Under the pieces are notes generated by a model, which did no database searches, was not told the DNA's origin, and saw nothing but the letters and a program-made list of their open reading frames with translations. A stretch of 64,000 bases of DNA, taken from Octopus vulgaris (taxonomy: Eukaryota). Below are positions 3,471-63,486 of this stretch, piece after piece; within the stretch, counting starts at the first letter, position 1; the number at the start of each line of letters is the position of its first letter. The stretch is from assembly GCA_951406725.2 (NCBI GenBank), contig OX597823.1:11470001-11534000 (forward strand). Reading direction: 5' to 3'. A program made the translations under genes and the position numbers.

Positions 3471-4533
3471 GCTATAGTGGTATGTGATGTACCTTGTGAG
3501 CCACTGTTCCAAAAAAGAATTGTGCATGTGTGTGTATGTGTGTGCATGCGCGCGTATATGTGTATAGATATATGCGTATATATGTCTTGCGAGTTAGTTG
3601 GTAACCTCACTTATGCTGGTGCCATGTAATATGCACGCAGTAGACCCTGTGAAGTACCTAGCAGCCATCTGTAGAAGGACATCTATCTGTAGAAGCCATG
3701 CCAAAGCACACAGTCCTCTGCTCATCAGCTCCTGAGAAACCATAGAAAATGGATGTTAAATGATGATAATAAATGCATTTATATATTTTCTGGAAGACTG
3801 CAAGGGAAGATACCTTTCATTGTCAGCCTAAAATACTTTTTGTTTTGAATACAATGTCTATGACCACCACAGTTACATCCAGTGTGCATATAGTATGGTG
3901 TCTTAAATGCCATTTCAACTCACATTGCTACTTCTATGCAAGTCCGTGTTGCACATCTTACAGATCATATACTCTTGTGGCTTTTGAATTTTTGCAGAAA
4001 TTCTGTTTCCACGCACGCGAGTGTATGTGTGTGGATAGATATAGAGTTCCGTTCAAAACTGTAAACTGCACTTCATGTAGTCTTCTGAACCCTTGGGAAA
4101 GACATGTATATTGCAATATTCCGAGTCCTTCTCTGTAATTCTGAATTGTTTTGTCTGTTTAAGAGGAAATCATTTATTTCAAATGGTATGATGAGGATCA
4201 AAAGTTTTACCCACTATAATTTTTTTTTTTACTTGCTGGAAGTTATTGTGTTTTTGTTTTGAGGGGCAGTTAGGTTCCTTTTCTTTGCAATATGGCTTTT
4301 CTTTAATTCAATTTGTGTTTGCAATTCTTTTTAATTGACAAATAAGGAAATATATCGTACATGTGAAAATGCACTTATATTGTGACAATATAGACTTCCA
4401 TGCAACAGAAACCTTGAACCTCAAGAGAGGCATTTTCTCTTTGAGGTACATCACTTCTGCTGCTTAAAATATCTACTGTCATTCTGTTTCACAGATCACA
4501 AGTATTCTCCATGCTGTAGATCTGTTTAGATAC

Positions 4534-4636
4534 ATGGCAGCGATATTATTATTGTCATTGTTGTCGTGTCACCAGGGACTAGATATTTGGCTTGAACTGC
4601 ACTGCATTTCACTTGGCCTGTCTCTCGTTGCAACTG
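4534..4636 (+). CDS. Putative first coding exon (signal-peptide-like) of the LAR-family RPTP; exon 4495-4636
   Basis: Acceptor TTCTGTTTCACAG ends at 4494; ATG 4534 gives hydrophobic MAAILLLSLLSCHQG...LGLSLVAT; a phase-1 donor CTG|GTACTT at 4637 is compatible with the downstream exons. The donor is only moderately strong. Confidence 0.4.
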
Positions 4637-5407
4637 GTACTTTAAGCCATAGTAAGAACAGTTATTGCAGTGAATGTTGGTGGTTTAGAAGCTGCCTGAA
4701 CATAATGAAGAAAACATTGTCACTGAGAAATGCCAGTTGTTTTGGTCACTCACAAAATGCTAGGCAACATCTGAGAATACTAGTTTCTCAGATACTTCTA
4801 TCATGTCTTCTCACTATTTCTTTTACCAAAGTCTGTTTGGTACATTTAAGGTTCCTTTCTGTGTAAACCCACTGAAATTTCTTTTTATCATAATCTCCTT
4901 CCCTTCGTTGCCTTGATAAAGGAAAATATTTTATTTCATTCTTCTTATTTATTTACTTTTTTCTTCTTAACTGTCTCCCATAGCAACTCCCCTCTCTTCC
5001 AATATTTTCCTGATAATTACTAACTGAGAAGTTGAAGTTAAATGTTTATTGAATTGATATTTAACTTTATCTAAACATTAGTTTAGTTAATCCCCAATCG
5101 CAGTTCTTCAGTTCTCAGTGACCAATTTTATACATTCACTGCACAAATATGATAGAAATGTTGGTACACCCATCTTCCCTTTTTTTTCATTTTGCTATCA
5201 CTCGTAACCTTGTTATCGAATCTTTCTTTGTCACCTTGTTACTCCAAAGAGAAAGCATGGGGTATTTTACTATTCATTTGTGTATAGAAAAAGTACCTCT
5301 CTCAAAGCAGAAAGCCACTACTCTTTAAATCAATCAGTTGAAACAAATCATATATTCATATATAACATCACGTTACTAACACTTTGTCATATGTATTACA
5401 TATTCAG

Positions 5408-5449
5408 GTGCTAACTTAACCAACCTCCGGTATATCAGCTATTTAACAC
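5408..5449 (+). CDS. 42-nt phase 1-1 mini-exon upstream of Ig1 (xANLTNLRYISYLT-H)
   Basis: Perfect branch point TACTAAC 5374-5380, acceptor TATTCAG, donor C|GTAAGT, TGCATG at 5457-5462. Open only in phase 1; splicing to Ig1 gives H-P-P. Confidence 0.65.
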
Positions 5450-5866
5450 GTAAGTATGCATGGTCAGCATTAGAGAAGCAACTAAAATAAAATATTAAGC
5501 TATAGATGATAAAGGCCCTATTCAGTTATCCCATTAGTTACTCAGGCACATCATTTTAGTTAATATATTAATAATATTCCATTATTTTGCTTTTGCAAAA
5601 ATTTAGGTTATATATAAACAATGAAAAATGCAATTAACTGAAGTTTCTTCAAACGTTTATTATTGTTAAGTGTAATAAACTTTTCCTTTTCGGGTGGTAG
5701 GGTTGAGTTTGATAGTTTCCAGCTGATGATACTGTGTGTTACCGCAAGAATTCAAAATGGACAAGATGTGATTCCAAGTAATTTAAAGTTTTGATATCTG
5801 ATGCTTTTTTCGAGCTAAAATAATCTGGCTTACTTTAGATAGTTGAACTACAGACCCTTATGTGCA

Positions 5867-5911
<45 letters not shown>

Positions 5912-6646
5912 GCATACATAATGTCCAATACTTATTTGGAAAAGCTATGGTTGAATTTTATAATGCTGTCCATTGTAAGGCCTCCATTTAACATATTGTT
6001 TGGATATTAGACAACTAAGTTGGATATAGGTGATTGTAAATAACGTTTATTTTCATCAACTCCACTTCATAAATTTGCTGACCTAAAATATGAACCCCAA
6101 GACTTTTCCTCATCTAAAAATATTATCATTTCTTTCAGTTCTTTTGAATGTATTTTGAAATATTGCTATTTGAAACTAATTTTGCAGCCAAAATAAACAG
6201 ATTTTTGCAATTTCAGATACCCAACTTATTCGTCTAATATTGTATGTGTTTTTTTTTTTTTATTATTATCATTATTTCAGTTAAGTATTAAATAGCTGTT
6301 TTTGTTGCCACAAATTCAGTGATTAAAATTTTTGTTATATCTTAAAAAAATAACATGTAATAACTGTATACCTAAAGATCAACATTGTCACTGTTTTTAG
6401 TAAATTCTCTGAAAGTATTTTTGTAGTGATTAATTCTAGACAATGTTAGCAAAAGATCTTCTTTGACTTGAATGTCAGTTATTTCATGATATTGCCTAAG
6501 ATTTAACAAAAATTTTAGTTGTTGTTTTTGTGTGCTTCAGTTTATTTTACTTATCTTTACTTTTTTTCATTTTTGGTGTTTAGTTGTTTGCTCATATTCT
6601 GGTTCCATGGATTAGAAATATTAAGAATCTCATTTGTTTCTTGCAG

Positions 6647-6940
6647 ATCCACCAAAAATTACACTTGCTCCAAAAAACCAAAGAGTGGCCGAAGAAAAAA
6701 TTGTAAGCTTTTTTTGTAAAGCTTCAGGAAATCCTGGCCCATCATTTTCATGGAGAAAAGGAAGTCGCCGCATTAGTATAAATAGAAACCGTTTGGTTAT
6801 AAAGGAAATGCCACATGGGTCTGTATTGAGAATTGAGCCAGTTAAAAAAAAGGATGCCGGTAGTTATTATTGCATTGCTGACAATGGTATAGGAGCAAAA
6901 GCTAAGGCAAATGCAACTTTGGAAGTCTTTTCAAAAATAG
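6647..6940 (+). CDS. Lar: Ig1 (I-set) exon of a LAR-family receptor protein tyrosine phosphatase (PTPRF/PTPRD/PTPRS-like)
   Basis: 294-nt exon between TTTCTTGCAG and GTGAGT, phase 1-1. PPKI..PKNQ.V....VSFFCKASGNP.P.FSWRKG...SVLRIEPV...D...Y.CIADNGIG...A.ATL closely parallels my recollection of Drosophila Lar and vertebrate LAR Ig1. Confidence 0.88.
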
Positions 6941-7956
6941 GTGAGTGATATATTTTCTAAATATGCAAATTTTCTTCTTTGGAAAGATTTTTTTTAAGAA
7001 CTTTCTTTGGATGTAAGTTTATTTGTGTAGTATAGAAAAAGTTTGTCAGAAACTTTTAGATTTTTACAGAAATAAAGAAAATGTAATAATAATAGTAATA
7101 ATAATTGATGTCTTCTTGGCAGGACAGATTTAAATACATTTGTGTTGAAAGAATTTGGAAAACTAATCAGCTAGGATATACATGATGAATATTTTATGTG
7201 AAACAAATGATTTTTCTTAGAATCTTTGACAATTCAATATTGTCTGTGATGGAAGTTATGTGAACAAAAGTAGATTTTCTGAAAAAAAAAAATGCTATAT
7301 TGTATTGACAGTTTATTTAAGATATAATAAAACAGAGTGTATCTATCAAGATATGAAAAAATTCATCAAAAAGTAACTATTATTGCAAGTTTAGAAGTAA
7401 TTAAGTTCTGTGAAGTCTATCACTTTTGAGAGTCATATGTAAATATTAAATTTTAAGATTCATTCTTTTCAGGAATATTTGATGGCCTTTTTTTTTTACA
7501 GAATAATTATTTTTGTTTTGTTATTATGAATTTTGTTTGAATTGTTGAAAATAATAATAAAAAAAAAGAATTGTGTTCTATAATGTCAACCAATGTTGCC
7601 CTCATAAGTGAATGTTTTTATGTTGCTGACCATTCTTGATGCAGTGCCATTTTTCAATTGTTCACATTGTGAAACATTGTAAATTATGTATATATTTATT
7701 TATTTTTAATTTTCATTCTTTGTTACTATCATTAATATAGATTTTGAATCTTTACATACTTTTCAAAGACATTTTTCTGATATTCAGAAATCATATAGCA
7801 AAAGAGTTAAGTAATTGCTGAAATTTTTTGGTATCACAAAGAATAGAAGATAGCTTACAGTAGCATCATATTACCTTGGTCTGTGGTATCTTTGACACAA
7901 ACCAAATTAACTGGGGTATTGTTAATCTATGAATTTTTCTCACTCTTCTTTTTCAG

Positions 7957-7980
7957 AATATAGATATATAGACATTTTTA
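7957..7980 (+). CDS. Candidate 24-nt phase 1-1 micro-exon (EYRYIDIF) after Ig1
   Basis: Long pyrimidine tract TTTTTCTCACTCTTCTTTTTCAG, donor A|GTGAGT; phases 0 and 2 contain TAG, phase 1 is open. Confidence 0.55.
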
Positions 7981-8029
7981 GTGAGTAAAAGAACGTAGAA
8001 TTTGTCATTCATAAACATTATTGTTTCAT

Positions 8030-8480
8030 CATAGGCCAGCCCTGATTGAACAAACCTAGGATCAAAGGTGTTCCAGGTGTGACCATTGAGTCATTTCTTT
8101 TTTCAGACTATCTAAGATTACTTTACCCAGTGTATCTTCCCCTTTTTCTTTTTTTATATTTATAGACAATAGGGTTTCATGGCAGGTTGTTATTTCTAGC
8201 CAACCATGTAACTGTGTAGAGGTTATCTTACTGGCTTATAACTAAGAAACTTACTGAAGTTTAACCCCCGATTGGCCCTGGTTGAACAGGGCAGTAATCA
8301 AGGTTTTTCCAGCTATGTTTATTCAGTATTTTCTGTTTTCCGACATAGCGCAATACACAGTTAAGTTTAATATATTTTGGACTATATCATCCAATATGTA
8401 ATTTTTTTAAAAGATAGAATGTAATCTGAAAGAGATTGGGCTGTTATCTCTTGTAGATCAAGTAATCATGTAGATATTGC
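8030..8480 (+). repeat. Two tandem diverged copies of old interspersed repeat family G
   Basis: CAGCCCTGATTGAAC...GATCAAAGG..TTCCAG..GTGACC...GGCTG(C/T)TATTTCTAGC motif set recurs about a dozen times in the window. Confidence 0.6.
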
Positions 8481-9399
8481 TTTTGAGCTTTTTTTATAGT
8501 TGTTGATATTAATAGTCCATATGATTAATACAAAATTTCATCTCAGTTAACCATGTTCTATGTGCTTCAGTGAAGTAGTGGTAAGCTAATAAATCAAGCA
8601 TTTAACCTTTTACCACTTCACTGAAGTGTAATACATATACATATATTTGTCTGTCTGTCTGTCTGTTGTCTGTCTGTTCAATCTCAAGTGGTCATTTTAT
8701 TTTGACTTCAAACTTGCTGCCTGTAAGTCCTTATCTTAAAAAGCTACTTCTGGCTTCTTTAAGTGGAATATAATTTAATCAATACTCTGCAGTGGGGAAG
8801 AGGGAAGCAAATTATCCAATTCCATGCAAATTCAATCAGTTTTCTATTAATGTTTTTGACATTTTTGTTTTTGTCTCCTTCACTGTCAAATCAGTTTAGA
8901 GGACATTTGGAGAATATTAAGTTAATTCATTAAAAAATTTAGAACTTTTTTTTAACACTGCCTAAATTTTACAAATAAATAATTTCATCGTAAAACTTTA
9001 GCTTATATACTGTTGAGCATAGCTTTGTTGGTGGGACTATCACAAAGTTCTCATGATAGGGCTTATGAAATTTAAATTATTGCCAGGCAGAAAAAAAAAT
9101 TTTATTTTCCTCTTACCCCCATCTCCTGCAAGTTGCATTTAAGGCAGAGTATTCATTGTTTGAACTGATATGTTTTTATAAATATCTAGGGATATTTACA
9201 TGTAAAAAGCACCCAGTCCACTCTGTAAAGTGGTTGGTAATAGGAAGTGCATCTAGCTGCAAAAGCTATGCCAAAGTAGACAATGGAGCTCGGTGCAGTC
9301 CTCTGACTCGCCAACTCCTGTCAAACCATCCATCTACCATTCCTTAGGATATCAAAAGGTAGAACCAACCTGCCCCCACCAAAAAAATAAAAAAAATCC

Positions 9400-10200
9400 C
9401 GAACTCACTGCTCTTCTCAAATATTTGAGGCCTTCTTGAGGCCAACCTGGATCCCATACATCACCCCTTACTCACATGCAAATCTAGACATACATAGATT
9501 TTGTTCTATCTGCTACTCCTCTTATCTGGATTTCAGAAATTGATTTTCAGTTTCTCCAACTCAAAGTCTCCATTTATCATTCTTTAAAATACATCTCTCT
9601 ATACAGCTTTCTGTACTTCTCAAAACACCAGCAAATACCACACATCACCCCTTTCTGAAGTCATTGTTCTTGGTGATGAGGAATTACACAACTTCTCAGA
9701 GGTGTCACACTCATCCCATACTGATGCTACTAGTGCATAAGCCAAATCTTTTGTTGTTCCCAATTACTTACTTCAATTTGTTTTATTCCCAACTTACACT
9801 CCAGACTGACAGACAGATCACCTTGAATACTTCTTATACATCTCGAAATTTAATTATTATGAAACCACTTTTGCTCTCAACTTTGCATCCAACTCCACAC
9901 TACATACTCTTGGCCAGTCACTTATAAATCTATTTCCTTCCCACTCATTTACTGTCACAGCCAACAACATCTGCTCTTAAGTAGATGATATAACCCTTTG
10001 TCCTGCCTAACCTTCCTCATACATCATTCACAGACAACCTAGACACCACATGCAAAGTTTGCACTGATTCCATGGAGACCTTGAATGGATCCTCCAGTTG
10101 AGCTTAAAACAACATAAAAAAAAGTTGATTCTCAATATTGCACCACAAAACCTTAAACATGAGTTGCAAGCAGATAAATGCTGCTTGGTCGCTCAAAATG
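9400..10200 (+). mobile_element. Highly decayed LINE RT remnant
   Basis: Near 9957-10000 reads TANNICS*VDDITL (decayed YADD) followed by DLEWILQ; boundaries are uncertain. Confidence 0.35.
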
Positions 10201-10289
10201 TAACACTACACACATCCAACATACACCACACACACACACACACACATATATAAAACCTTATAAATTTATATGACTGCATGTTGTGAGAC

Positions 10290-10545
10290 ATGCTGTGGTG
10301 GGTTTTGCACGAACATGGGATTAATGAGCAACTTCAGTTGCCATGAAGACCCGATACGAATGCCAAAATATTTATTTTTGGGTAAATGGGGCTAAATTGA
10401 AGCCTTTGAACCTGTGTGTTGAACTTTGGCAGGTATGCATACTGCCACCTCTTTTTATAATTTTCACAAATTGACTTAACATGCACAGCCATCGTGGAAA
10501 TGGTATCATAGTCAAAGGGTGTAGGATTGGTCAGCTGATATATAC
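10290..10545 (+). mobile_element. Decayed RTE-like RT fragment
   Basis: Reads LWWVLHEHGI...VELWQVCILPPLFIIF, resembling the GLRQGCVLSPLLF motif region. Confidence 0.4.
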
Positions 10546-10823
10546 TCTAACAACATGCAGCTACATGTCTTATTAGAAGGTTCTGTTCCCACAAGCACTG
10601 AATAGACTCCTTGCCAAGTGCTGCAAGGCAGAGATAATTAGTGATATGAAGACTGGTTAGTCCTATCAAGAAAGTCTTTTCAGTGATGGGATGCAGGATG
10701 CTGAATAGAATGCTAGAAATGCTTGTGCAAGCACAGTAATGCACAAGCTCTAGTATTCAATCTTCAGAAGAGTTGGTAAGTTCGTAAGCAATCCAAACTC
10801 ACTATCTTCATTTCTGTTTTTAT

Positions 10824-11008
10824 ACGTAAAAAGCACCCACTACACTCACGGAGTGGTTGGCATTAGGAAGGGCATCCAGCCGTAGAAACACTGCCAGATA
10901 AGACTGGAGCCTGGTGCAGCCTTCTGGCTTCCCAGATCCCCGGTCGAACCGTCCAACCCATCCTAGCATGGAGAATGGATGTTAAACGTTGATGATGATG
11001 ATGATGAT
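10824..11008 (+). mobile_element. Family C copy
   Basis: Same body and (GAT)n tail as 2272-2447. Confidence 0.75.
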
Positions 11009-11039
11009 ACCTCTCTTCATCCATGGTTATGCATATCAC

Positions 11040-12055
11040 TACATATCTTTTACACATCTCTAGGGAGTAGAGCTTCAGTTCTTTTAGCCTTTCTCAGTAA
11101 CTCATTTGTTTCACCAAGTCAGTCTTCTTTGTGCAGTGGCTCTGGATTGCTTCAAGTTCCTTAACCCTTTCGTTACCAACCCGGCTGAAACCAGCTCTGG
11201 CTCTGAGTACAAATGTCTTATTTTCATGAGTTTTGCACTAAAATCTTCCACCAAACCTTAGTCACACTTTATGTTCCTAACACTAGCTTAATGATAACTA
11301 AGTTAATTTACTAAATTCTTTGTTATATTTAAAGTAATTGAAAGAAACACAGAGCATCTCAACAGAAATACATTAGCAAAAGGGTTAACTAGTTTGATGC
11401 CCTAGAGTGATCACAGTTGGGAGCAGTAATCCAGACAACTCAGAAGAAAAGTTTTCCATAGGAGTAGCATGGTATTGTTTGTTCCTGGTTCTGAATGATT
11501 TCAGAATCCATCCAGCAACAACTTCCCTGCACAATGTTGCCATTTTGGTAATATGCCCATAGAATTTTACATCATTACTCCCGTGAGTTCCCAAGTGATA
11601 CACCACTCTAACTCAGGAATTGCACTACTCTGTATTGCGATTATAGTGTTGAAGTGCTTGAACCTTCTCAGGATTGAATCTTCATGTTGCTTTCATCAGC
11701 CCATTTGTATATTGCATTCAGGTAATTTTGCCATATTAGTATGTCATCAGTGTCCTTGAATGCTTCTGCTTCATTTGTATCATAAGCATAGCTTATGTAT
11801 CATAAGTATAGGTTTGTATCATCAGCATAGCTGGTGAGAGTGCTTGACTGTGTAGCTGATGGAAGGACTCTGAGAAGCACCGCAGCAGTAACAGTCTCAG
11901 TACAGTTCCACGAGGGACTCCGCTGTGAATTGATGTCTCTCCACAGAGAGAAAACCAATTGTCCCACAGCTGCCTTTTAAAAAGTCATGCAGCCTCTCTT
12001 TTATTTTTCCAGCAATGCTAAGGTCATGCAGTTTGTGACATTACCATCCCATGAT
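11040..12055 (-). mobile_element. CR1/L2-group LINE RT remnant interrupted by a MITE
   Basis: Minus strand SGVPRGTVL (~11901-11924), SYADDT (~11815-11832) and GWILKSFRTRNK; contains stops and frameshifts. Confidence 0.75.
11161..11388. mobile_element. TTAA-flanked MITE family E1 (piggyBac-like)
   Basis: TTAA-CCCTTT...AAAGGG-TTAA termini, 228 bp; similar copies at 25287 and 35672. Confidence 0.85.
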
Positions 12056-12198
12056 CAACACACACGCACACACATATGTGTGTGTATGTATATATATGTG
12101 TGTGTGTATATGTATATATATCTATATCTGTCTATCTATCTATCTATATATATATATCTATATCTATCTATCTATATATACACACACACACACGAGTG

Positions 12199-12358
12199 AC
12201 TTCTTTCAATTTCAGTTTACCAAATCCACTCACTGGGTTTTGGTAAGCCTGAGGCTATATACTAGAAGACACTACCCCAAGGTGCCATACAGTAGGACTA
12301 AACCCAAAACCATATGGTTGCGAAGGAAGCTTATTACCACACAGTCACACCTGTGCCT
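12199..12358 (-). mobile_element. Diverged SINE family A head
   Basis: Reverse complement of the tRNA-like head and the CTTGGGxAGTGTCTT segment. Confidence 0.65.
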
Positions 12359-12385
12359 CTATATGTTTACATATATGCATGTAAA

Positions 12386-12438
<53 letters not shown>

Positions 12439-12589
12439 GTATGTATAATTTGGTTAAATGTTCAACACTCAGATACCAGTAAATGTAAGTAGAATACATA
12501 TGCCAAGTAAATCCTCATGCATGACAGGTAAATCCAAGAATTGTTTCAAAGTATTAATATATATATATATATATGTGTGTGTGTGTATG

Positions 12590-12639
<50 letters not shown>

Positions 12640-12763
12640 GATAGATATATGTAGATAGATATAGATATATATGAATATAAATATGTGTTTATATATATAT
12701 ATATGTAGATAGATATAGATATATATGAATATAAATATGTGTTTATATATATATATATATATA

Positions 12764-12914
12764 CACACTCTCGGAGTGGTTGGCATTAGGAAGGGCATCC
12801 AGCTGTAGAAACTCTGCCAGATCAGATTGGAGTCTTGGTTCGCCAGACCTCAGTCAAATCGTCTAACCCATGCTAGCATGGAAAGCAGACGTTAAATGAT
12901 GATCATGATGATGA
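12764..12914 (+). mobile_element. Family C copy
   Basis: GGAGTGGTTGGCATTAGGAAGGGCATCCAG...CATGCTAGCATGGAAAG...(GAT)n. Confidence 0.75.
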
Positions 12915-12981
12915 TATATATGGATATGAATATAAATATGTATAGGAATATATTCATATGTATATATATTTCATTATATAT

Positions 12982-13116
12982 GTAGGTCCCGGGTTGATTC
13001 GGGGTTAACCACAGTAAATAAGGTACTCAGTACATAGCAGAGTAAAATTAATTTATTATATAGAAGGAGCTTCTACAGGACTAGAACTGTTTCATTCAAG
13101 AGAAATCTTCAGGAAG
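12982..13116 (-). mobile_element. Penelope-like pseudo-LTR fragment carrying a hammerhead motif, 14-bp TSD
   Basis: Flanked by ATTTCATTATATAT (12968-12981; 13117-13130); the minus strand carries the HHR core and a downstream AATAAA. Confidence 0.6.
13070..13116 (-). ncRNA. Minimal type I hammerhead ribozyme motif
   Basis: Minus strand: CUUC-CUGAAGA-U UUC ucuu GAA U-GAAA-CAG uucuaguc CUG-UA-GAAG. All core nucleotides are present, with stems I/II/III of 4/3/3 bp. Confidence 0.6.
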
Positions 13117-13553
13117 ATTTCATTATATATTTCATTATATATTTCATTATATATATATATGTATATTGCATCTTCCCACAACACACACATATGCACAAAC
13201 AATATTACACACACCAACTGATAAGAGAGATACATACACACACTTGTTCATATACATACATATGCATAAACACACAATATTAATACATTAACACATAATA
13301 CACACACACACACACACAACAGTGTCATACACCAACCTGATGCACAAACACGCATGCACACACTACTCTCCCTAAGCAGACACGTACACATTAGCTGCTA
13401 CACACATGCATTTGCACACACACACACACACACTTTACACAACCTCACGCATTCCCACGCCTATACACATCTCCACACATGCATACACATAAATACACAA
13501 GCACAGACATACATCACTCAACACAGCATATCTGTTTGCTTATTCATATACAT

Positions 13554-15332: not shown

Positions 15333-16539
15333 TATATATATATATATGTGTGTGTGTATGTGTGTTTGTATATGTGTAAAAAAAGGTTATTTAATTTCAC
15401 ATGGGAATAAATATAGAAAAAAGAAGTTGAAAAGGCACTGGGAGTGTTTTAGATGGTCTATTTTTGAAGGCTTAACTGGTTTAATTTTCTGAATTTCAAA
15501 AGTGAAGTGAGATAGAAAGATGTGGGGCTATGCGTTGGCTCTCTTGCTCTGACAGGAGTGCTAAAACTCTTGATTTTATAGAGTGAACATTGTCTAAATT
15601 AGTATCTGTTTAGGATACAATTTTATTGGCAGAGGATGATCACATGATGAGGCTTAGAAATTTTTGTATATTCTTGTCCATGTGTTAATCTCATGTGACA
15701 GTATTTTTTTGGAGCTGTAAGTTAAGGCTGACACAATTGGGCGAACGTGTTTAGAGATAGTTCCAAACAATCAAGGCTCTCTAAATTTAATATCAAGTGT
15801 GGTAGAGGATGATTGTGTGATTAGGCTTGGAAAGTTCCCTGCTATGTCTGCGAGTTAATGTCATGTGACAATCTTTTTTTGCTTGAACTCTAAGAATGAC
15901 ACTGTTGAGTGATTGTGTCTAGTGACAGTTCCAAACAAGGCCCTCTAAATTTGATCTGTGAAGTGTTAGAGTGGACAGGAGTTGTTTGTATATAGTCCTG
16001 TATATATGCACTCACTTATATACATCCCTCAACCTTCACCAAGTTGAGCACCATTGGTCATCCATCTATCTCTACATGACACCTTTCATTCTCCCTGAAT
16101 TTTCAAGTTGTTGCCAACCGTACTGTCTTCTCTTGCTCCCCCATACACTTGTAAACCTACACCTACATGACTTCTTCCTCTGTCCCACACTTCTAATCAC
16201 CTCACACCTTTAGGAACAACCTGGATCATTCACACTCTCACTCATAAAGGTGAGTAACCATGTAGCTCCTTTCCAAGAACCTCACCTGTTCCACCTCTTT
16301 TTCTTTCACACTTATACCCTTCATCTCATATAAAACTGCACCCACCCTCTGGTATTGTAATGCAGTGCACCATACAGGGAAACTTAACCAGACCTGATGG
16401 GACAAAATAGTATCCAATACACACTGAGGTGGCTGCCAAAGGGCATCCAGGTATTGAGAACGTGTGACATGAAGACACTGGAGTATGATAGTCATTGGAC
16501 CCGTTGGGCCCACACACACACATATATATATATGTGTGT

Positions 16540-23089: not shown

Positions 23090-24112
23090 AAAGCCTACAC
23101 AAGGAAACTAGAGAAATATTGTATAGGATAGTAAAAAGAGATAATGAGAGTTGAGGGATGGGATTGCATTGATTTTATTTCCCAGAAACCTGCTGAGAAA
23201 AAAAAAAACACCTACTCATATACAGCTGAATGTCAAATTGTTAATGAGATAAAAACTTTTTGTGGACAATAGAAAAGTTGTTAGAGATGAGATTTCTTTA
23301 TTAAATGACAATGTATGAAGGTGATTAGTGTAGGGTTAGGTTTTGTGAATAGGAGGAAAATTTTTCAAATGTCCTAATGATTTTCATATGATATTCAGCA
23401 AAGGAGGTTGAAAATCATATGACATTCAAAATAATTAAATTCAGAAATTTTCACATTTAAAAAAAGTCTTTACAGTCATTTGAATACAAGAAGACACTGT
23501 TCAGTATATCCAAAGATTAACAATATAGAAAATATTAATTTACATATAATATAGATACTTCTTAGGAAGTACAAGTGTTATGGAAACTTAACTAAATGTT
23601 TGAAAGAGTCTAGACTTCGCTAAAGGCACCAAAAGGTGCCTTTAGCAAATCAAGTCTCAGATAAATTCTTCCACCCTTGATGGCTCTTTCAGTTACCATG
23701 CCTTCCTTCTCTAGATTGTCTTGTGTCCTTCCTTCTTTTTTTTAAATGGACTGATGTGTTTTGAGGGTTAGCCTGACTTATTTTTAGCAGGTTTAGTGAC
23801 ATATAGTGACTTCCTCATTGTTTCTTCTGAGGAAACAATTTTTTTGCTAGATTGTCATAACTTGGAAGCTGCTCTCATCTTTTTTCTCTAAAATCCAGGT
23901 TTTATGATTCACAGCAATATTCTTAGTGGAAGGGATCAAAACACATGTATTTTGTGTATTTATAAATTAAAAACTGCATCAGTTTCTATGCTATCACCAT
24001 GATCATTAGAAGGAGAATTAGAGATTGAAAATTCATACCTGGTGTGGTTTCACAGCACAAAAAAATACCTCAAGAATATGAATATTGTCAAATTTGTCAC
24101 GTCTGAAAATAT

Positions 24113-24490
24113 ACTATGCTTATTCTGAGCGCCTTGTTTCCCTGGGCATGGATTCACTGAAGCTCCGGCATCTGGCGACGGACTTGGTAAACACCCACAA
24201 GGTTATCAACCACCTCACCAACAACAACACTGAACACCTTTTTGATCTCCATGTGTCTAACACACGTGGACATGCCTACAAAGTCAGAAAACAGCACAGC
24301 TCCCATGACTTTCGGAAACATTTTTTCACGCTCAGGGTTGCTGAAGCGTGGAATAAACTGCCTGCATCAGTTGTTGACTGCCATGACACTGCATCCTTTA
24401 AGGCCCTCATGCTTCCCGAAATCCGTCGAAACTACACCTGATTATATATACACTTTAGATGAGTTGTAGTGCACCTGAGCACTGTACACA

Positions 24491-53072: not shown

Positions 53073-53103
<31 letters not shown>

Positions 53104-53176: not shown

Positions 53177-53220
<44 letters not shown>

Positions 53221-53879: not shown

Positions 53880-54288
53880 TACTCTTTACTCTTTTACTTG
53901 TTTCAGTCATTTGACTGCGGCCATGCTGGAGCACCACCTTTAGTCGATCAAATCGACCCCGGGACTTATTCTTTGTAAGCCCAGTACTTATTCTATCGGT
54001 CACTTTTGCCGAACCACTAAGTGACGGGGACGTAAACACACCAGCATCGGTTGTCAAGCAATGCTAGGGGGACAAACACAGACACACAAACACACACACA
54101 CACACACATACATATATACATATATATGACAGACTTCTTTCAGTTTCCGTTTACCAAATCCACTCACAAGGCATTGGTCGGCTCGGGGCTATAGCAGAAG
54201 ACACTTGCCCAAGATGCCACGCAGTGGGACTGAACCTGCAACCATGTGGTTGGTTAGCAAGCTACTTACCACACAGCCACTCCTGTGC
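53880..54288 (-). mobile_element. SINE family A, full length
   Basis: Reverse-complement match to family A. Confidence 0.9.
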
Positions 54289-55315
54289 AAAATAATCGTA
54301 ATATTATTTTGTTATGCCCTTTTATATTTACCAAATCTCAGTATGGCTTCTACCTCTCTGTGGTCAAGAAAATAAAATAACTCTCATCTACTGTGCTTCT
54401 TTAAGCCAGTGATATCTCATCCCTCAAAGAATCTGGGAAGAATTTTAATTTTTTAATTTTTAAAACTATCTTTTTTAGTTTTAGTTGTGTCATTTTGGTG
54501 ATACTGTCTTTTATGATAACCTAGGGGCAGAAATAACAGATTATGATTCGTTGTTTTTTTGTAAAGTGTTAATGTTCAAACACTGAACACTATTGAAGCT
54601 ATTCCATCATAGTATCCTTAGCTAAGATATCATTATATTTAACTAGTTCCACTTCAAGTCAGTCTCTATAAATTCAAGCGACAATTCGATAAATGTTAGA
54701 AAAGCAGAAAGGCTTATACATTGGTATTAAGTAATATCTTGTGTGAGCTTGCTACCCTGGTTGTTAATTGGAATAATTATAAAACAGCATTTAATAGACA
54801 GATATGGACAGTGGTTGGCATTCAATTTCCAGCACAATATGCAAATTATTTCAAATTTGTTAGCTCAGTAAAATGGGTTTAAGCCATAAAATATATTGAA
54901 ACAGTAAAATACTTTCTAGAATATTCAGTGATTTGTGCTTTCCTTAAAAGAATTGAAATCTTTTAGAAATAAATTTAAATAGAAATGTGTTGCAATTACT
55001 GCTTGTTAATGACACTTTCCACATTAAAAATGGAGCTGATGGTTTTATTTAATGGTAATTTGGCATCAGGGGAGGTAAATCACTATTTCTTTTCTCTTGC
55101 ATTTTGAGAATACTTAGGTTCCATTACTCACTCCTGCTACTGATACTTGGATGACGACCATGGCGGCGTCATTGATTTTTTTTTTTACAAATACCTCCAT
55201 ACCCGACCCCTCTCTCGCATTTCAGATATTTTGAAATTTGATGGTTTCTTCTGATAAATATTATTAACTTTCTCGTCTCTTTCAGCTATAATTGTTTTGC
55301 TTTAGATTACTCCCT

Positions 55316-55349
<34 letters not shown>

Positions 55350-55682
55350 AAAATAATTGTTCACTACTAATCATATGGCTTGTAAGCTATACAATAGCTT
55401 TGGGGATTTTCTGGTTTTCTAACATCTATCTAATTTTCTACTGAATTTATAAGAATTAAGTTGTCAGGCATATTCGGCATTTACTAAATATATTCTATCT
55501 CCACTGAATATATTTTGCCACTTATAATATATTTATATATATTATATTGATGTCATCATATTCTCCCCCCTCCCTCACACTTGTCATGAGCAATATTTTC
55601 ATTATGATACTGACTATTATCACAGTGTAGTTGAAAAATTCTGATAGATTAAAGATTTTTATAACCATAGGTTATAACCACA

Positions 55683-55754
55683 GGTTCTATGGTGTAATGG
55701 TTAGCACTCTGGACTCTGAATCCAGCGATCCGAGTTCATGTCTCGGTAGAACCT
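55683..55754 (+). tRNA. tRNA-Gln (anticodon CTG), T-loop variant; possibly a pseudogene
   Basis: GGTTCTATGGTGTAATGGTTAGCACTCTGGACTCTGAATCCAGCGATCCGAGTTCATGTCTCGGTAGAACCT forms a full cloverleaf nearly identical to metazoan tRNA-Gln-CTG; TTTT follows at 55757-55760. Confidence 0.88.
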
Positions 55755-55767
55755 GATTTTCAATTAT

Positions 55768-56183
55768 AGGCGCAGGAGTGGCTGTGTGGTAAGTAGCTTG
55801 CTAACCAACCACATGGCTCCGGGTTCAGTCCCACTGCGTGGCATCTTGGGCAGGTGTCTTCTGCTATAGCCTCGGGCCGACCAAAGCCTTGTGAGTGGAT
55901 TTGGTAGATGGAAACTGAAAGAAGCCTGTCGTATATATGTATATATATATATATGAATGTGTGTGTTTGTGTGTCTGTGTTTGTCCCCCTAGCATTGCTT
56001 GACAACCGATGCTGGTGTGTTTACGTCCCCGTCACTTAGCGGTTCGGCAAAAGAGATTGATAGAATAAGGACTGGGCTTACAAAGAATAAGTCCTGGGGT
56101 CGATTTGCTCGACTAAAGGCGGTGCTCCAGCATGGCCGCAGTCAAATGCCTGAAACAAGGAAAAAGTAAAAAAAAAAAAAGAG
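55768..56183 (+). mobile_element. SINE family A, full length, 13 bp downstream of the tRNA
   Basis: Complete family A match. Confidence 0.9.
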
Positions 56184-57187
56184 TATATTTCAAATAAAAA
56201 AACAAAAAAAGAGCTTTGATTAATTTGAAAAATAATGAGAACTTGGAGTAATTTAGTATAGTAATGCTAACTTATTTATATGTATGTATGTTAAGCTAGT
56301 GGTTATAACATAAGAAGAAAAAAAAAAAAGGTTTTCTCCTAAAATTATGAGGGAAAACTTTAAATCTAGGTTTTGTGTGAAAACCAGAAACAATTTTGAG
56401 CAGTTTAATAGCAAAATAGTTGTGTGTATGATGGAAAAAAGACCAGTAAAAGAGTGATATTTAATTATGAATGATTCGATCCGAAAGATAGTCTGACAGG
56501 ATTCAGGATTTATACTTTACTGCTTGTTGCATTATATATTAACATTGCACACTTAGTATTCCAATTGTGTGTAATTAGTATCTTTATGAATTCATCTGCA
56601 ATTGTAGCTGATTGATAAGTAGGAAAGGAAAAAGCTTACACTGCAAGGGAGTTAATTCTGCTTAAACGGTTAATTTCCTATACTGTATCAAATATCTGTT
56701 GAGTCTTTTTTATATATATATTGTCTAATTGCTGTTACAGCTATGTTCACTTACGTTTATTTCAATTTAAACTCCTTCTTTCAGTTCTTAAAATTTCTCT
56801 GGTCGCGAGATCCATGTCAGTGGATTATGTTAACACTCAAATATATTGATTTGGTATTCCTGAATTGGGCTAAAGGAACGGGTTGTGTCTGGAAGCATAG
56901 CCTTAATGAATGAATGCTAATTTATTCAATTTCTGATATTTATTTTGAATGTGTTCTTAAGGTTTGTGATTATCATTGTTGTCATCTTAACATTCACTTT
57001 CTCAAAATTGCATGGGTTAGACAGGATTTTTTAAGAGAGAATCTCTATAGCCAGATGCCCTTCCTGTTGTCAACTCACGCCTGTTTTCAAGCAAGGTATT
57101 ATTTCCCAAAGCTGGATATGTTTCCCACAGAAGGCTGGAAAGGAACAACATCACTTCTATAATAGTGATGCTCATTTACAACCATAA

Positions 57188-57294
57188 CATCATCATCATC
57201 ATCATCGTTTAACGTCCGCTTTCCATGCTAGCATGGGTTGGACGGTTCAACTGGGGTCTGGGAAGCCCGAAGGCTGCACCAGGCCAGTCAGATC
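57188..57294 (-). mobile_element. Short family C copy
   Basis: (CAT)n-CGTTTAACGTCCGCTTTCCATGCTAGCATGGG... Confidence 0.75.
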
Positions 57295-58751
57295 ATGATG
57301 GCAAAAAAATGGGTAAATACACACATTCATATGACAAGCTTCACTCAGTTTCTGTTTACCAAATCCACTCAAAAGGCTTTGGTTGAACCAAGGCTTTAGA
57401 AGAAGACATTTGCTCAAAGTGCCACAAAGGTGAATTGAACCCAAGATAACATGGCTAGAAAGCAAGCTTCGTAACCACACAGCCACATCTGCACTATTGT
57501 TTCTAGTATTTCATATATGGATATTACAGAACTTCTGAATTTCTCATCCTTTCTAAATGATTTTTATCACCCACCAGGCAATGTCAAATACTTTCCCTAT
57601 GAGTTGGGAAAGGCAAGATATAATGACTTCAACAAAGGCAAGATATAATTACTTGTTCTTCAAAAAGGAAAGGTATAGTTACTTGTTCTTCAACAAGTAC
57701 CTCTATTTTGATGGTTTTTATACATTAGTTATTCCCATTATAGAAATTAATTTCTAGTGCACAGTCCTTAGTATTTCTGGAAAACTATACAGTGATGCTA
57801 ACATACTCAAGTGAATAATACCCACTTGAAGCTTGGCGAACATATTCCAGTATATATATAACATGCCCAGCGTATCTCCATGGTTAATTTTTGCTTCTGT
57901 AGTCTTTCAGATTTCTTTGTCCCCTAACCTTTACTGCTAGTTCACCGTATCCTGCTCACCTTTACTACTACTGAGGATCCTAATTTTACCTTTTGCTAAA
58001 AAAAAAAGCTTACACTTTCAATCTCTAGTTTTTTTAATTGTTGCACTCAAAAACGTTTTCAGACTAAAATATTCAAGTATTTCTACTTCAGCTGGTCACT
58101 AAATAAATAAAAATATTGCCAGTTTACTTCTCTTTGATTGCATTTTATTAGTTACCTTTTATGTTGCATATAGAAGGAATCATTATCCTTGTGCTATCAT
58201 TGGGTGAAAGATATTTACAAATGCATAATCATATGTGTTTATCGTAGTGTCAGTGTAAGACCAAGGGCATTTATCATATTGTCAGCACCAGTGTAAGACC
58301 ATGGATGTTTGTCATAGGATCAGAACTTACATGATTCCAAGATTTTTTTATAAGTGAATCAGTACCAATGTATGAACAAGGATGTATATTACAGTTTTGA
58401 TAACAATGTAAGACTATGAGTGTGTGTGTGTGTGTGTGTTTTTATGTTTATTTGCGCATATATGCATATGTGTGTAATTTCTATATGTAAATGTATGTCT
58501 GTGTCTATATACGTACGCCTTATGGAAGTCTGTTTATTTTCATTTGATATTTACTGAATGATATCCTACCCCCAGCCAGATAGTAATATCAATCAGTGTA
58601 TTTATTTGTATCCCATATTGTGTAGTCATTTGTGTTTGCATGGCCTTTGCATGATTTAATAGAGATGAAAATATTGGTAGGGTTTCCATATTAACTATCG
58701 GGATACTATCAGAGCTGAGACAACTCTGTTCCCTGTATTAGCTTTTGTGTG

Positions 58752-58812
<61 letters not shown>

Positions 58813-58820
58813 CAACAATC

Positions 58821-59049
58821 ATAATAATAATAATACTTTCTACTATGGGCACAGGGCCTGAAATTTTGGATGAGGGGGCTAGTCGATGACATCAAACCCA
58901 GTGCTCAACTGGTACTTGTTTTGTTGACCCTGAAAAGAAGAAAGGGCAAAATCAACCTCAGCAGAATTTGAACTCAGTACATGAAGACACACGAAATACC
59001 ACTATGTATTTTATCTGGCATGCTAACGATTCTACCAGCTCACCACTTT
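58821..59049 (-). mobile_element. SINE family D with alternative tail ending in (TTA)n
   Basis: Head and body homologous to 37345-37569, but the tail is CCAAAATTTCAGGCCCTGTGCCCATAGTAGAAAG(TAT)n on the minus strand. Confidence 0.7.
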
Positions 59050-59488
59050 CATAATAATAAGTAGAATAAGAATTGTGTCAAATTTCGGCACAAGGCCTGT
59101 AATTTTAAGTGGTGGTAGGAGCTAGTCCTTGACATGGATACTTTATTAACCCATGTCGGCTCTACATAAAGATATCTGTCTGTACCCCTGTATACCTTTG
59201 GCACAAAATCACACACCCCTCAATACTACTCACCCTCCCTACTGAGTGGGGTCTTGTCTTGCAAGGTACTTGGCCACCCTGCTGGCCAAAATAGACAATG
59301 GAGCCTGAGGTAGCACCTATCAAACCTTCCAACCTATGCCAGCATGGGAACTGGACGTTAAATGATGGTGATAATGAAAAGGATGAAAGGCAAAGTCGAT
59401 CTCATTGGGATTTGAACATGAAACATAAAAAGCTGCAAGAAATGCTATTATCTTGCTAACAATTCTGCTAGCTTGTCATCTTATAAAT

Positions 59489-59870
59489 GGAGGCGCAATG
59501 GCCCAGTGGTTCGGGCAGCGGACTCGCGGTCGTAGGATCGCGGTTTCGATTCCCAGACCGTGCGTTGTGAGTGTTTATTGAGCGAAAACACCTAAAAGCT
59601 CCACGAGGCTCCGGCAGGGGATGGTGGTGATCCCTGCTGTACTCTTTCACCACAACTTCTCTCACTCTTACTTCCTGTTTCTGTTGTACCTGTATTTCAA
59701 AGGGCCGGCCTTGTCACTCTCTGTGTCACGCTGAATATCCCCGAGAACTACGTTAAGGGTACACGTGTCTGTGGAGTGCTCAGCCACTTACACGTTAATT
59801 TCACAAGCAGGCTGTTCCGTTGATCGGATCAACTGGAACCCTCATCGTCGTAACCGACGGAGTGCTTCCA
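59489..59870 (+). mobile_element. SINE family B, full length with 12-bp TSD
   Basis: CATCTTATAAAT at 59477-59488 and 59871-59882. Confidence 0.92.
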
Positions 59871-62800
59871 CATCTTATAAATAATAAGTTTTGAAGGGAA
59901 CGAGTTAATCAATTCCATCAGCCCCTGTACTTCACTGATGCTTTATTCAATTGCGAAGGTTGAATTGCTGTTGCTTCAGTTGTGAGAGAAAAACATTTTT
60001 GTCTCCTTTTGATGTAGAATTTTTTCTTGAAATATTAAAATTCTAATCTCTCTTATGACTCACCAACTTAACCAAATTTAACCTCATAGGTGTTTATATA
60101 AGCCTAGTAGCATCGATCTCGAATGTTTTGTCTTTGATATCGTAAGGTAAATACCATGGCCAAATTAGTTTAAAAACCATTGCCATCATTTCCAAAACAA
60201 AGAAATAAGTGGGAAAGAAATGCAGACTCTATAAAATACAGCAATTTTCATAACAAGGGAAATAACTCTTTTAAAATTAGACCTAAGATAATGATTTCAC
60301 TCCCTTGATATACCATAAAATTACATCCAACAATTTTATTTAAGGTATGACCAATTAGTTAATGTTGCATAGCCCCATGTCAGGCTTAATCTAGCAGACC
60401 TATGATCAAGGAGATCCTACTGATGGAAATTATTATTTTCTCCAGATATAGTGTATCTAAAACTAGATTATTTGATATATCTTTTAAAGGAGTGATTTGA
60501 TGGAAATTTTGGCTACTATTTCTGCTTTGTTCACTGGTTATACAACAGTAGTTGTTGCTGTGGTGCCTTTTGTGTCTGAATTCATCCATTATCCATTTTA
60601 TATGTTGAAGTCAAAAATAAGTTTGAAAATTACTGCTTAATTATTTTTCTCTTCCTATCTCACAGATGTTATTCGAATCTGAAAAAAACATTTGTATAAT
60701 CTCTGTTAGGCAATTTAGTGTGAAATCACTAAAACTAATTAATATATGTTGTTGTTGTTGTGCTTCTGCCCCAGATCAATCCCAGTCGTGTTCACCTATG
60801 ATGTTTGGCCTTCCAGTCGTGACTATTCTGTCTTTTTGTATATTTTGGACCTCAGTGACCAGAATGCTCTTTTAAAACAGTGTAATTTGAAGGACATTCG
60901 GCTGTTATTTCTAGCAGGCCTGGTGACCATATAGAGGGTCCCACATTGACAATTATTTTGTATATGTATATGTGTGATGCAGATGTTTGATGTGTGTTTG
61001 TGTGTATATATCTTGGGAATTAAAAATTTTAATTCTTTTCATGTTGTAAAGTCTCAGTATACATCACTCTGTGGGTGTATATCCACACACTAACACACAC
61101 ACTTATATTTATGTACACAGCTTATAAATGAAACGTAAAATATTTTCAGTTTAAAAGTGTATTTTTTGTTTAACATGGAAGCAGTCTGATGGCTGTTATT
61201 GTTTATAATAAACATTTTTATTTTTCATGGAATAAAAAAAATTGTTTAACTAGCACATATATATATGTGTGTGTGTATTTGTGATAAAACTTGAAGTCTA
61301 GCATATTCCCACCTAAATGTCAAATTTAACGTCTACAACACAGTATATAGAGATGTTCTAGTAACATAGCCTTGGCTGTGATAGCTTCCTTTCTTGCTTC
61401 TAACTTATAAATCTATTGTGAATTGGCTTTCATTTTATATCGATCACTTTCAAAGGTTGCAGAATTGACAGATTTGGTAGAACAAAATGCCAAACAGTAT
61501 TTAGTTATGCCTCTTTATACTCTGAGTTCAAATCCCTCCCCAGGATCAACTTTGCCTTTCGCTCATCCGGGCTTCACAAAAGCAGTACTGGACAAGTACT
61601 TAGGTGTTTGATATAACTGATTATACTCTCTCTTGGCGAAACATGTGGCTTTGTGCCCATGTGGTATTAGTTTTTTTATGATGCTTCTCTGTTTGTTTCA
61701 TTTTAATTTCTTGACAATATTTCATTTCTTTCCTCTCCATCAGAATTTATATAGATATAATGTTATGCTTATTTTATCTTCAAATATAGTCTAAGATACA
61801 CGAATGGCATTTTAACTATGCATGGCTTTATCTGTGATGGTTTAGACAGCCTAAAGAATTAAAAAATTAACAGATGTATAATCAAAGATATTCTAACCGA
61901 GAATGCATTCTTTGTGATTGACTAACAACACTACATTGTTTAATTGCTCCAGGTGTCAGTGCTTTGGCTGCTGTTTCTAGCAGATCAAATAAAATGAGTA
62001 TAGGCTCCCTTGTTAGCTCATCAAGGATTATTTATTAGAATATCAGTGCAGAGCTCTGGATACTTTTGAATCAAAACCACATTTGGATACTTTCAAAGAA
62101 ATCGGATCTCCCTCTTCAGTGTTGAAGCTTAACTACTTCACTTAATAGTCCCTTTACTCCACACCTTAGTGTGTTGTTTATACAGCTTAATAATACAGCT
62201 AAGTATTACTAGATTAAACTATTGTTAAAGATATGTTCTCAGCTCAGCTCCAATCATTTGGCAAATCATATCTTAAGCTCAAATCATATTAGGATAAAAA
62301 GCTTGGTCTTCTGTATCTACATTCAGTCCCTTAACCCAGCACTTAAGGCAAGTTTCTTCTACCATAGATTCCTGGTTGACTAATACCCAGTGAGTGAAGT
62401 TAGACATATATTGTGCAGGTGTCCATCAGGCAGACTGTACCTGTTTTTAGGAAGTAGGCTCACTCTCCGTCTGGTTTTAACACCAGCTGATCTTTGGATA
62501 CCTTTAGTCCACTATATTAGAGTCAAACCAGGATTCTGCACTGAGGATGACTCAAAATTTTGATGAGCTACTGTCTATTGCATCCTATGAATAGTGGTTC
62601 TTCTTTAACCCCTCTTTAGCAGTCTCAGAAACTTTGCCAAAACTTAAGAACTTTCCTTCTTTCTCTGACTAAACCATAAAAAAAAATTAAGAAAAAAATG
62701 TGTTACATTTTTTTCTTATTAACTGACAAGTACTTAGAATTAATTATGAAATCATCTACTGATTAATTACTTCTCTTAAATATAGCAATTAAGCAAATTT

Positions 62801-63180
62801 TTGCAGAACAATAATCCAATAGCTTATTACAATGATTGAGTTTAATACAAATGTTATTCTGGAAGTGAATGGAAATTGAGATGCTGTTTTCTTCCTGAAA
62901 TTGTATCGAAGAATGTGTGTGTGTCTGTGAAAGTTAAAGTAATGGTGGAATAGAATAAAAATACTAAACAAAACACTTAAAATGTAGAAATGTTGTGTGG
63001 AATACTGGATTTTAGGTTTTATCACAATATTTCTCTATACAATTAAATTGATTGCCATATGTGAATGTATATCATAGACTAAAAAAGAAAAAAAAAACAA
63101 AAAAAAAAACAAAAGTGGTTTGTCTTTTTTTTTTTTAATGAAGTTTATTCCTAATTAGAATTTTCTTCTTCTACCTACAG

Positions 63181-63210
63181 AAATAAATCATTGGAAATTT
63201 ATGTATGAAG
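63181..63210 (+). CDS. Candidate 30-nt phase 1-1 micro-exon (xINHWKFMYE)
   Basis: Branch-like CCTAAT at ~63150, tract TTTTCTTCTTCTACCTACAG, donor AAG|GTAAAA; stops in phases 0 and 2, open in phase 1. Confidence 0.5.
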
Positions 63211-63486
63211 GTAAAATTTATTATAGTAAAAGTAGATGCAACTAATTAACAAATCATTTAATAAATTATTTAAATATGATGCATTTTAAAGATAATTCCT
63301 AATTTGGGGATAGTTGTTCTTTCTACTAGAAAATCTTATAGGTTGTTGTCAGCTTTTTATGTGTGACCCCTTACAGTATTTTAGGGGGAGGCTGGTTAGG
63401 TTGCAACCTATAATCACTACTGTTTTAGAAAATGATGCTGTAATTTCATCATATATATTACATGTACGTGTGTGTGTATATATATT

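What the first reader, a model, noticed from the sequence alone, without database searches (positions are those of the whole stretch)
4495..63216. Candidate phase-1 micro-exon cassette system flanking Ig1 of a cephalopod-type LAR phosphatase
Seen: the Ig1 exon is phase 1-1. Three short segments (5408-5449, 42 nt; 7957-7980, 24 nt; 63181-63210, 30 nt) each have credible acceptor and donor sites, a length divisible by 3, and stops in both other phases, so only the phase of Ig1 is open. Established: vertebrate LAR-RPTPs use mini-exons meA (within Ig2) and meB (Ig2-Ig3 junction) as a splice code for synaptic ligands such as Slitrk, IL1RAPL1, TrkC and SALM, and Ig1-Ig2 forms a compact V-shaped unit. 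Inference: optional peptides before Ig1 and in the Ig1-Ig2 linker would be a different, independently evolved splice code that could alter this geometry and give combinatorial isoforms. Caveat: I inspected roughly twenty acceptor-like sites by eye and most failed, so individual hits could be chance.
Basis: partly seen in the sequence, partly recalled or inferred. Interest (0 to 1): 0.85.

Follow-up and report, generated by a model that had tools for sequence, protein, structure and literature searches.

The report
Ancient micro-exons flanking octopus LAR Ig1
An octopus nerve-wiring receptor gene (LAR) can include or skip tiny exons on either side of its first Ig domain; one is shared with flies and horseshoe crabs and another with snails and clams, and they likely tune which partners the receptor binds.

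Summary
The window holds Ig1 of an Octopus LAR-type phosphatase. m1 (5408-5449, 14 residues, before Ig1) is spliced in RNA contigs of 2 of 4 runs and has include/skip isoforms in 20 named species, from octopus to Drosophila (same length, 7 of 13 residues identical). m3 (63181-63210, 10 residues, Ig1-Ig2 linker) has include/skip isoforms in 15 molluscs; I could not lay RNA on it. m2 (7957-7980) is probable but unproven: one public record splices Ig1 to it, and 0 of 4 runs show the joint. The finding's 5' edge (4495) is not the signal-peptide exon, which lies 81 kb upstream of m1. The system is not cephalopod-specific: m1 is protostome-wide and m3 is shared by gastropods, bivalves and octopus. 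AlphaFold models keep the Ig1-Ig2 V shape with both inserts, so the inserts likely add binding surfaces and do not bend the unit. The isoforms are already in automatic annotations. Eight literature searches found no description of these cassettes or of their conservation. No ligand or tissue pattern is shown.

The parts
5408..5449 (+). m1: 42-nt phase 1-1 alternative micro-exon between the signal-peptide exon and Ig1; adds 14 residues (P0021 residues 22-35) with an N-glycosylation sequon and an aromatic-rich tail; protostome-wide
   Evidence: (joint in runs X1 and X15)
5376..5380 (+). branch-point-like CTAAC, 32 nt upstream of m1 (function inferred)
   Evidence: run X15 differs at 5380 (C>T) and keeps a branch-point-like word
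5457..5462 (+). TGCATG (Rbfox-type element, motif recalled) 8 nt after the m1 donor; possible inclusion enhancer, untested
   Evidence: 34 copies in the 64-kb window, none near m2, m3 or Ig1
6647..6940 (+). Ig1 exon of the LAR-type RPTP, 294 nt, phase 1-1
   Evidence: (100% to Octopus RefSeq proteins)
7957..7980 (+). m2: probable 24-nt phase 1-1 minor exon after Ig1 (8 residues); may be an internal cassette or read through its donor to a stop at 7986-7988
   Evidence: (P0318); not seen as a joint
63181..63210 (+). m3: 30-nt phase 1-1 alternative micro-exon in the Ig1-Ig2 linker; adds 10 residues (P0021 residues 134-143) with a central Trp and a penultimate Tyr; shared with gastropods and bivalves
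   Evidence: structure

Best explanation
The octopus LAR phosphatase gene includes or skips two ancient in-frame micro-exons, one just before Ig1 and one in the Ig1-Ig2 linker, and these likely act as add-on binding surfaces that switch ligand preference while the predicted V-shaped Ig1-Ig2 unit stays intact. Shown: both exons are alternative; m1 is conserved across protostomes and m3 across gastropods, bivalves and octopus. Predicted: m3 extends the last Ig1 strand and folds back as an ordered two-strand hairpin at the bend of the V; m1 is a flexible N-terminal tail. Inferred: m1 is N-glycosylated and its aromatic motif orders only on a partner; inclusion is cell-type regulated (for m1 perhaps through the Rbfox-type element); the result is a splice code that works like vertebrate meA/meB at different sites. 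m2 is probably a younger, minor third exon (about 0.65 that it is spliced at all).
For: RNA contigs show both SP>m1>Ig1 and SP>Ig1. Include/skip pairs for m1 in 20 named species plus one unnamed cluster, and for m3 in 15 species (39 pairs picked by hand). Octopus and Drosophila m1 are both 14 residues with 7 of 13 internal residues identical and the same junction His; m3 is 10 residues in 12 of 15 species with Trp and Tyr kept. Keeping both the sequence and the option to skip over such distances points to a sequence-specific contact rather than a spacer. AlphaFold: with both inserts rmsd 1.2 A over 194 residues to human LAR Ig1-2 (2yd5), without them 1.1 A over 194; m3 region pLDDT 91-95 with strand 101-114 and a new strand 120-123, m1 residues 1-12 below 50 against strand 87-96 in the skip model. 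In vertebrates short Ig-region inserts set ligand affinity (PMC8711739, PMC6078854, PMC10883964; passages).
Against: No ligand, binding assay or tissue data. All four runs show the double-skip joints as their long contigs, and Ig1 joined straight to Ig2 in 4 of 4, so m3 inclusion in this species rests on identity to RefSeq models of sister species. RefSeq isoform lists do not prove which combinations occur in one molecule. 7 of 7 squid/cuttlefish records and the one Argonauta record show neither insert. AlphaFold has seen LAR structures, so the kept V may be recalled. No UGC lies within 60 nt upstream of any of the three exons.
Confidence: 0.55

Rival explanations
1. The inserts act on glycosaminoglycan binding, clustering or trafficking rather than on protein-ligand choice: m1 adds an N-glycan that changes folding, surface delivery or shielding, and m3 alters the basic heparan-sulfate surface of Ig1.
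For: A sequon is visible near the start of most m1 homologues in the alignment (by inspection). Ig1 carries the basic patch that binds heparan and chondroitin sulfate (PMC6078854, passages). By general Ig topology (recalled) the loop after the C-strand Trp lies at the same end of Ig1 as the linker. Many bivalve m3 homologues are Lys-rich.
Against: A glycan needs only three residues, yet the aromatic tail is the best-kept part of m1, and Mytilus and Tachypleus inserts lack the sequon but keep the tail. Distances in the model could not be measured.
Confidence: 0.25
2. One reading: the linker peptide(s) loosen or re-angle the Ig1-Ig2 V and so change composite ligand sites.
For: Ten extra residues more than double the short linker. 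Vertebrate meB works by spacing domains (PMC6078854, passages). Mytilus stacks a 5- and a 10-residue insert there.
Against: The model with m3 keeps the V (rmsd 1.1-1.2 A to 2yd5 and 3pxh) and folds m3 as an ordered appendage; the V is held by inter-domain contacts (PMC6078854).
Confidence: 0.12
3. m2 is not an internal cassette. Either it is a terminal exon that reads through its donor to the stop at 7986-7988 and yields a secreted single-Ig1 decoy, or it is a chance pseudo-exon picked by a gene predictor.
For: P0318, the only record with m2, ends in exactly this read-through and also starts in intron sequence (5401-5407). Variant poly(A) signals lie at 7984 and 8010. No joint in 4 of 4 runs.
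Against: m2 has a 15/16 pyrimidine acceptor and a full GTGAGT donor, and a length divisible by 3. In run X15 it has one conservative change, the same as in P0318, and its surroundings diverge less than the rest of the contig (3/163 against 34/531, Fisher p 0.026, zone chosen after seeing the data and 77 rows hidden). Its peptide scores in the top 0.1% against the m1 core (41 of 42,480 window 7-mers; post hoc). RNA contigs run on past the stop.
Confidence: 0.45
4. The inserts are near-neutral tolerated splicing noise.
For: Both sites are outside domain cores; several lineages show no insert in the records seen.
Against: Position, phase, length and motif are kept from flies to octopus (m1) and across three mollusc classes (m3).
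Confidence: 0.05

Closest known systems
Vertebrate LAR-RPTP mini-exons meA, meB, meC, meD (PTPRF, PTPRD, PTPRS)
   Same: Same gene family; short in-frame cassettes in the ectodomain; include and skip forms coexist; meA can stack two micro-exons as Mytilus and Mercenaria do here.
   Different: meA lies in Ig2, meB between Ig2 and Ig3, meC in FN5, meD near D1 (PMC8711739, passages). m1 lies before Ig1 and m2/m3 between Ig1 and Ig2. No ligand dependence is shown for m1-m3. Whether vertebrates or other deuterostomes ever had m1 could not be tested.
Drosophila Lar alternative exons in the eMIC/Srrm234 study (PMC8797185)
   Same: Fly Lar has a 24-nt pan-neuronal eMIC-dependent micro-exon, so invertebrate LAR micro-exon regulation is known.
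   Different: The Lar exons listed in the supplement places that I saw (27 of 62; 24, 291 and 9 nt) include no 42-nt exon. The fly homologue of m1 is visible only as RefSeq/GenBank isoforms.
RefSeq/GenBank automatic isoforms of Octopus and other protostome LAR genes (e.g. XP_036361657.1, XP_036361663.1, XP_029640727.1, XP_052827290.1-292.1)
   Same: They already contain m1 and m3 in include and skip forms.
   Different: They are unlabelled predictions; none of those seen has m2, and none notes the cross-phylum homology.

Membership tests
Type IIa (LAR-type) receptor tyrosine phosphatases | Three Ig domains, FN3 repeats and tandem PTP domains | tested here: met
   Ig1 is 100% identical to full-length proteins with Ig, FN3 and PTP Pfam hits; Ig2 and Ig3 exons lie downstream in the same contig
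Type IIa (LAR-type) receptor tyrosine phosphatases | V-shaped Ig1-Ig2 unit | tested here: inconclusive
   Predicted only: rmsd 1.1-1.2 A to solved LAR Ig1-2; may be recalled by the predictor
Vertebrate meA/meB splice code | Inserts located in Ig2 (meA) or at the Ig2-Ig3 junction (meB) | tested here: not met
   m1 precedes Ig1, m2/m3 follow Ig1; octopus isoforms seen have no insert at the meB site
Vertebrate meA/meB splice code | Short frame-preserving cassette with include and skip isoforms | tested here: met
   m1 and m3; not shown for m2
Vertebrate meA/meB splice code | Insert changes affinity for a trans-synaptic ligand | not testable with these tools
   No ligand known for these inserts
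eMIC/Srrm-dependent neural microexons | Length up to 27 nt (strict) or 51 nt (broad), frame-preserving | tested here: met
   24, 30 and 42 nt: only m2 meets the strict limit, all meet the broad one
eMIC/Srrm-dependent neural microexons | UGC element close upstream of the acceptor (feature recalled) | tested here: not met
   No TGC within 60 nt upstream of m1, m2 or m3
eMIC/Srrm-dependent neural microexons | Neural-specific inclusion | not testable with these tools
   Runs are contigs without tissue labels

The most novel reading that the evidence does not exclude
Protostome LAR receptors carry their own, undescribed N-terminal splice code, as old as the mollusc-arthropod split: an optional glycosylated aromatic peptide in front of Ig1 that gates binding to one conserved partner, duplicated in bivalves and, in octopus, copied in part to a second site behind Ig1 (m2), with molluscs adding a hairpin switch in the Ig1-Ig2 linker. 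It would be the protostome counterpart of meA/meB and could be tested at once in Drosophila Lar.
Probability: 0.3. Interest if true: 0.75.

Novelty: new variant of a known kind. Interest (0 to 1): 0.52.

Why it matters
LAR-RPTP mini-exons are a well-studied splice code for synapse choice in vertebrates. The papers I searched describe nothing equivalent at the N-terminus of invertebrate LAR. A 14-residue optional exon kept in place, phase, length and motif from flies to octopus gives a precise target in Drosophila, where Lar genetics are mature. The solved fly Ig1-Ig2 construct (residues 32-237, PMC9140312 passages; chains 3pxj and 2yd1) is of the skip form's length, so published binding work may have missed an isoform-specific partner (inference). 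The mollusc linker exon shows that this lineage added further switches at a new site.

Tried and rejected
4495-4636 as the upstream coding exon: rejected. Cephalopod-specific origin: rejected. No listed run is on record as RNA, so 'RNA' is the tool's guess; the spliced GT..AG joints show that the contigs laid hold spliced molecules. The profile search of 1.84 billion representatives returned multi-Ig giant proteins in its best 150 and said nothing on deuterostomes or cnidarians. A two-copy complex prediction of Ig1-Ig2 with both inserts gave no verdict. A shuffle test of insert homology and a count of sequons were not obtained, so homology rests on aligned position, length and identities read. 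m2's neighbourhood is single-copy in the genome search. PMC3086351 (horseshoe structure paper) is not held. Earlier-findings look-ups were empty. Literature searches listed no paper on pre-Ig1 or Ig1-Ig2-linker cassettes in invertebrate LAR; most subscription papers and databases such as VastDB or FlyBase are not covered, and bioRxiv supplements (e.g. of 10.64898/2026.09.05.749416, which includes O. bimaculoides) are closed and may list these exons.
Full report
Setting. The window is G000:C10:11470001-11534000, + strand. Its only long coding exon, 6647-6940, is an I-set Ig domain that is 100% identical to Ig1 of Octopus LAR-type phosphatases in RefSeq. The signal-peptide exon (64 coding nt, phase 1) ends at C10:11394534, 80,873 nt upstream of m1. 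Ig2 starts about 29.6 kb after m3 and is split into two exons, followed by Ig3. So the layout is SP - 81 kb - m1 - 1.2 kb - Ig1 - 1.0 kb - m2 - 55 kb - m3 - 30 kb - Ig2.

Observation. The three segments have the stated ends, lengths and single open phase. As a filter this is weak: a rule-based scan that admits all three also admits 80 candidates of 3n length on the + strand, 44 open in phase 1 and 11 open only in phase 1, against 59, 39 and 4 on the - strand. The segment 4495-4636 is crossed by unbroken contigs, shows no joint, and differs by about 7% in run X15; the loose ends at m1 and Ig1 match the distant signal-peptide exon instead.

m1 is real and old. Laying four runs from four studies on 4380-8300 gave the joint 5449>6647 in X1 (depth 85) and X15 (depth 8), the SP>m1 join in X1, and the SP>Ig1 skip in 4 of 4. 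RefSeq lists both forms in O. sinensis and O. bimaculoides. Among 317 proteins examined (68 could not be anchored and were left out; some were read by eye), an insert at the same place occurs in gastropods, bivalves, a chiton, Lingula, Limulus, Tachypleus and many insects. One search compared 39 hand-picked pairs: include and skip forms of m1 exist in 20 named species and one unnamed cluster. Octopus, Drosophila, Glossina, Eurosta and Haliotis rufescens inserts are all 14 residues. Octopus and D. albostrigata share 7 of the 13 internal residues plus the junction His. The shared pattern is a sequon near the start and an alternating aromatic/aliphatic tail that runs into Ig1. Mercenaria stacks two such inserts and Mytilus galloprovincialis has two alternative ones. 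Only skip forms were seen for Patella, Littorina, Gigantopelta, oysters, Mizuhopecten, Capitella, Argonauta and 7 of 7 squid/cuttlefish records; annotation depth differs, so this is not proof of loss.

m3 is real and molluscan. Window 63180-63212 matches P0021 residues 134-144 at 100%. Include and skip forms exist in 15 species: two Octopus, three Haliotis, Patella, Pomacea, Babylonia, Littorina, Physella, Pecten, two Mytilus, Mercenaria and Crassostrea; the insert is 10 residues in 12 of them and keeps a central Trp and a penultimate Tyr. It was not seen in 8 of 8 chiton isoforms, 5 of 5 Lingula isoforms, Lineus, Capitella or any arthropod examined. Mytilus has a further 5-residue linker insert and Mercenaria an alternative 10-residue one, so extra lineage-specific exons at this site have precedent. 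Against: all four runs showed Ig1 joined directly to Ig2; contigs drop minor variants, and m3 itself was outside the stretch laid.

m2 is probable, not shown. For: the best acceptor score of the three with m3 (15/16) and a full GTGAGT donor; record P0318 (124 residues, 3 members, origin not given) reads m1, Ig1 and then m2, with the same Asp-to-Glu change as run X15 at 7973; lower divergence around m2 in X15 (3/163 against 34/531, p 0.026, post hoc); and a peptide that resembles the m1 tail in register (41 of 42,480 window 7-mers and 10 of 7,780 open shuffles score as high; 12 of 24 nt match m1 in frame; noticed before testing). Against: no joint in 4 of 4 runs, absent from 13 of 13 octopod isoforms seen (12 of the 27 cluster members were never listed), present in 1 of 382 proteins. 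P0318 begins and ends in intron read-through, which fits a partly spliced transcript, a terminal exon or a gene prediction. I put it at 0.65 that m2 is spliced at all and about 0.5 that it is an internal cassette.

Structure. AlphaFold2 models of Ig1-3 with both inserts (mean pLDDT 93.5) and without (95.3) fit human LAR Ig1-2 equally: 2yd5 rmsd 1.2 and 1.1 A over 194 residues; fly 3pxj 2.2 A in both. With m3, the last Ig1 strand is four residues longer and a new strand appears at 120-123, at pLDDT 91-95; I read this as a hairpin at the bend of the V, though pairing was not inspected directly. m1 residues 1-12 are below pLDDT 50. The predictor has seen LAR structures, so the kept V is weak evidence.

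Mechanism. Shown: two alternative, frame-preserving, conserved cassettes. Predicted: V kept, m3 ordered, m1 flexible. Inferred: the conserved exposed aromatics are contact residues, so inclusion switches partner preference, as meA/meB do in vertebrates (PMC8711739, PMC6078854, PMC10883964; passages read). An Rbfox-type TGCATG sits 8 nt after the m1 donor (34 copies in 64 kb); no UGC precedes any of the three. Confidence 0.55; effects on glycosaminoglycan binding or trafficking 0.25; change of geometry 0.12; neutral 0.05.

Known and new. The isoforms are in automatic annotations. Eight paper searches (listings) found no account of them. Papers seen in passages: PMC8711739, PMC6078854, PMC10883964, PMC9140312, PMC9000958 (no mention of Lar splicing in the main text), PMC4239663, PMC12287369, PMC10084454 and bioRxiv 10.64898/2026.09.05.749416; for PMC8797185 only the search listing and 27 of 62 'Lar' places in its supplement. 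Verdict: a new variant of a known kind. The surprise is not cephalopod novelty but depth: m1 is shared with flies and can be tested there. Interest 0.52.

Noticed in passing
L008:7374-7754 (G000:C10 about 11601374-11601754): One open frame encodes a second signal peptide fused to an FN3 domain; it starts the Ig-less isoforms P0016/P0017, while the long octopus isoforms go from Ig3 straight to the next FN3. Scallop and mussel records show similar Ig-less forms.
   Followed up: no
P0021 about residues 331-335 (downstream of the window, after L006:4350): O. sinensis isoforms carry a further 5-residue optional insert between Ig3 and the first FN3 that O. bimaculoides and P0024 isoforms seen lack.
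   Followed up: no
Ig2-Ig3 junction in P0040, P0041, P0060, P0067: Inserts at the vertebrate meB position occur in Mizuhopecten (two kinds), Haliotis and Lineus, with unrelated sequences; none in the octopus isoforms seen. The octopus gene has introns both inside Ig2 and at the Ig2-Ig3 junction.
   Followed up: partly
P0242, P0249 (Mercenaria); P0071, P0078 (Mytilus): The pre-Ig1 exon is duplicated in bivalves: stacked in Mercenaria, two alternative versions in Mytilus galloprovincialis.
   Followed up: partly
window 5072-5449 in run X15: One contig keeps the intron upstream of m1 but is spliced from 5449 to 6647, which fits removal of the short intron before the 81-kb one.
   Followed up: no
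window 517-549, 8166-8207, 16214-16249: Three further 3n-length segments with strong splice-like ends, open in phase 1; no support sought.
   Followed up: no
window 24082-24441 and many shorter copies across the introns: An open frame resembling the C-terminal end of a LINE reverse transcriptase (by eye, recalled) and numerous short interspersed repeats and microsatellites fill the large introns.
   Followed up: no
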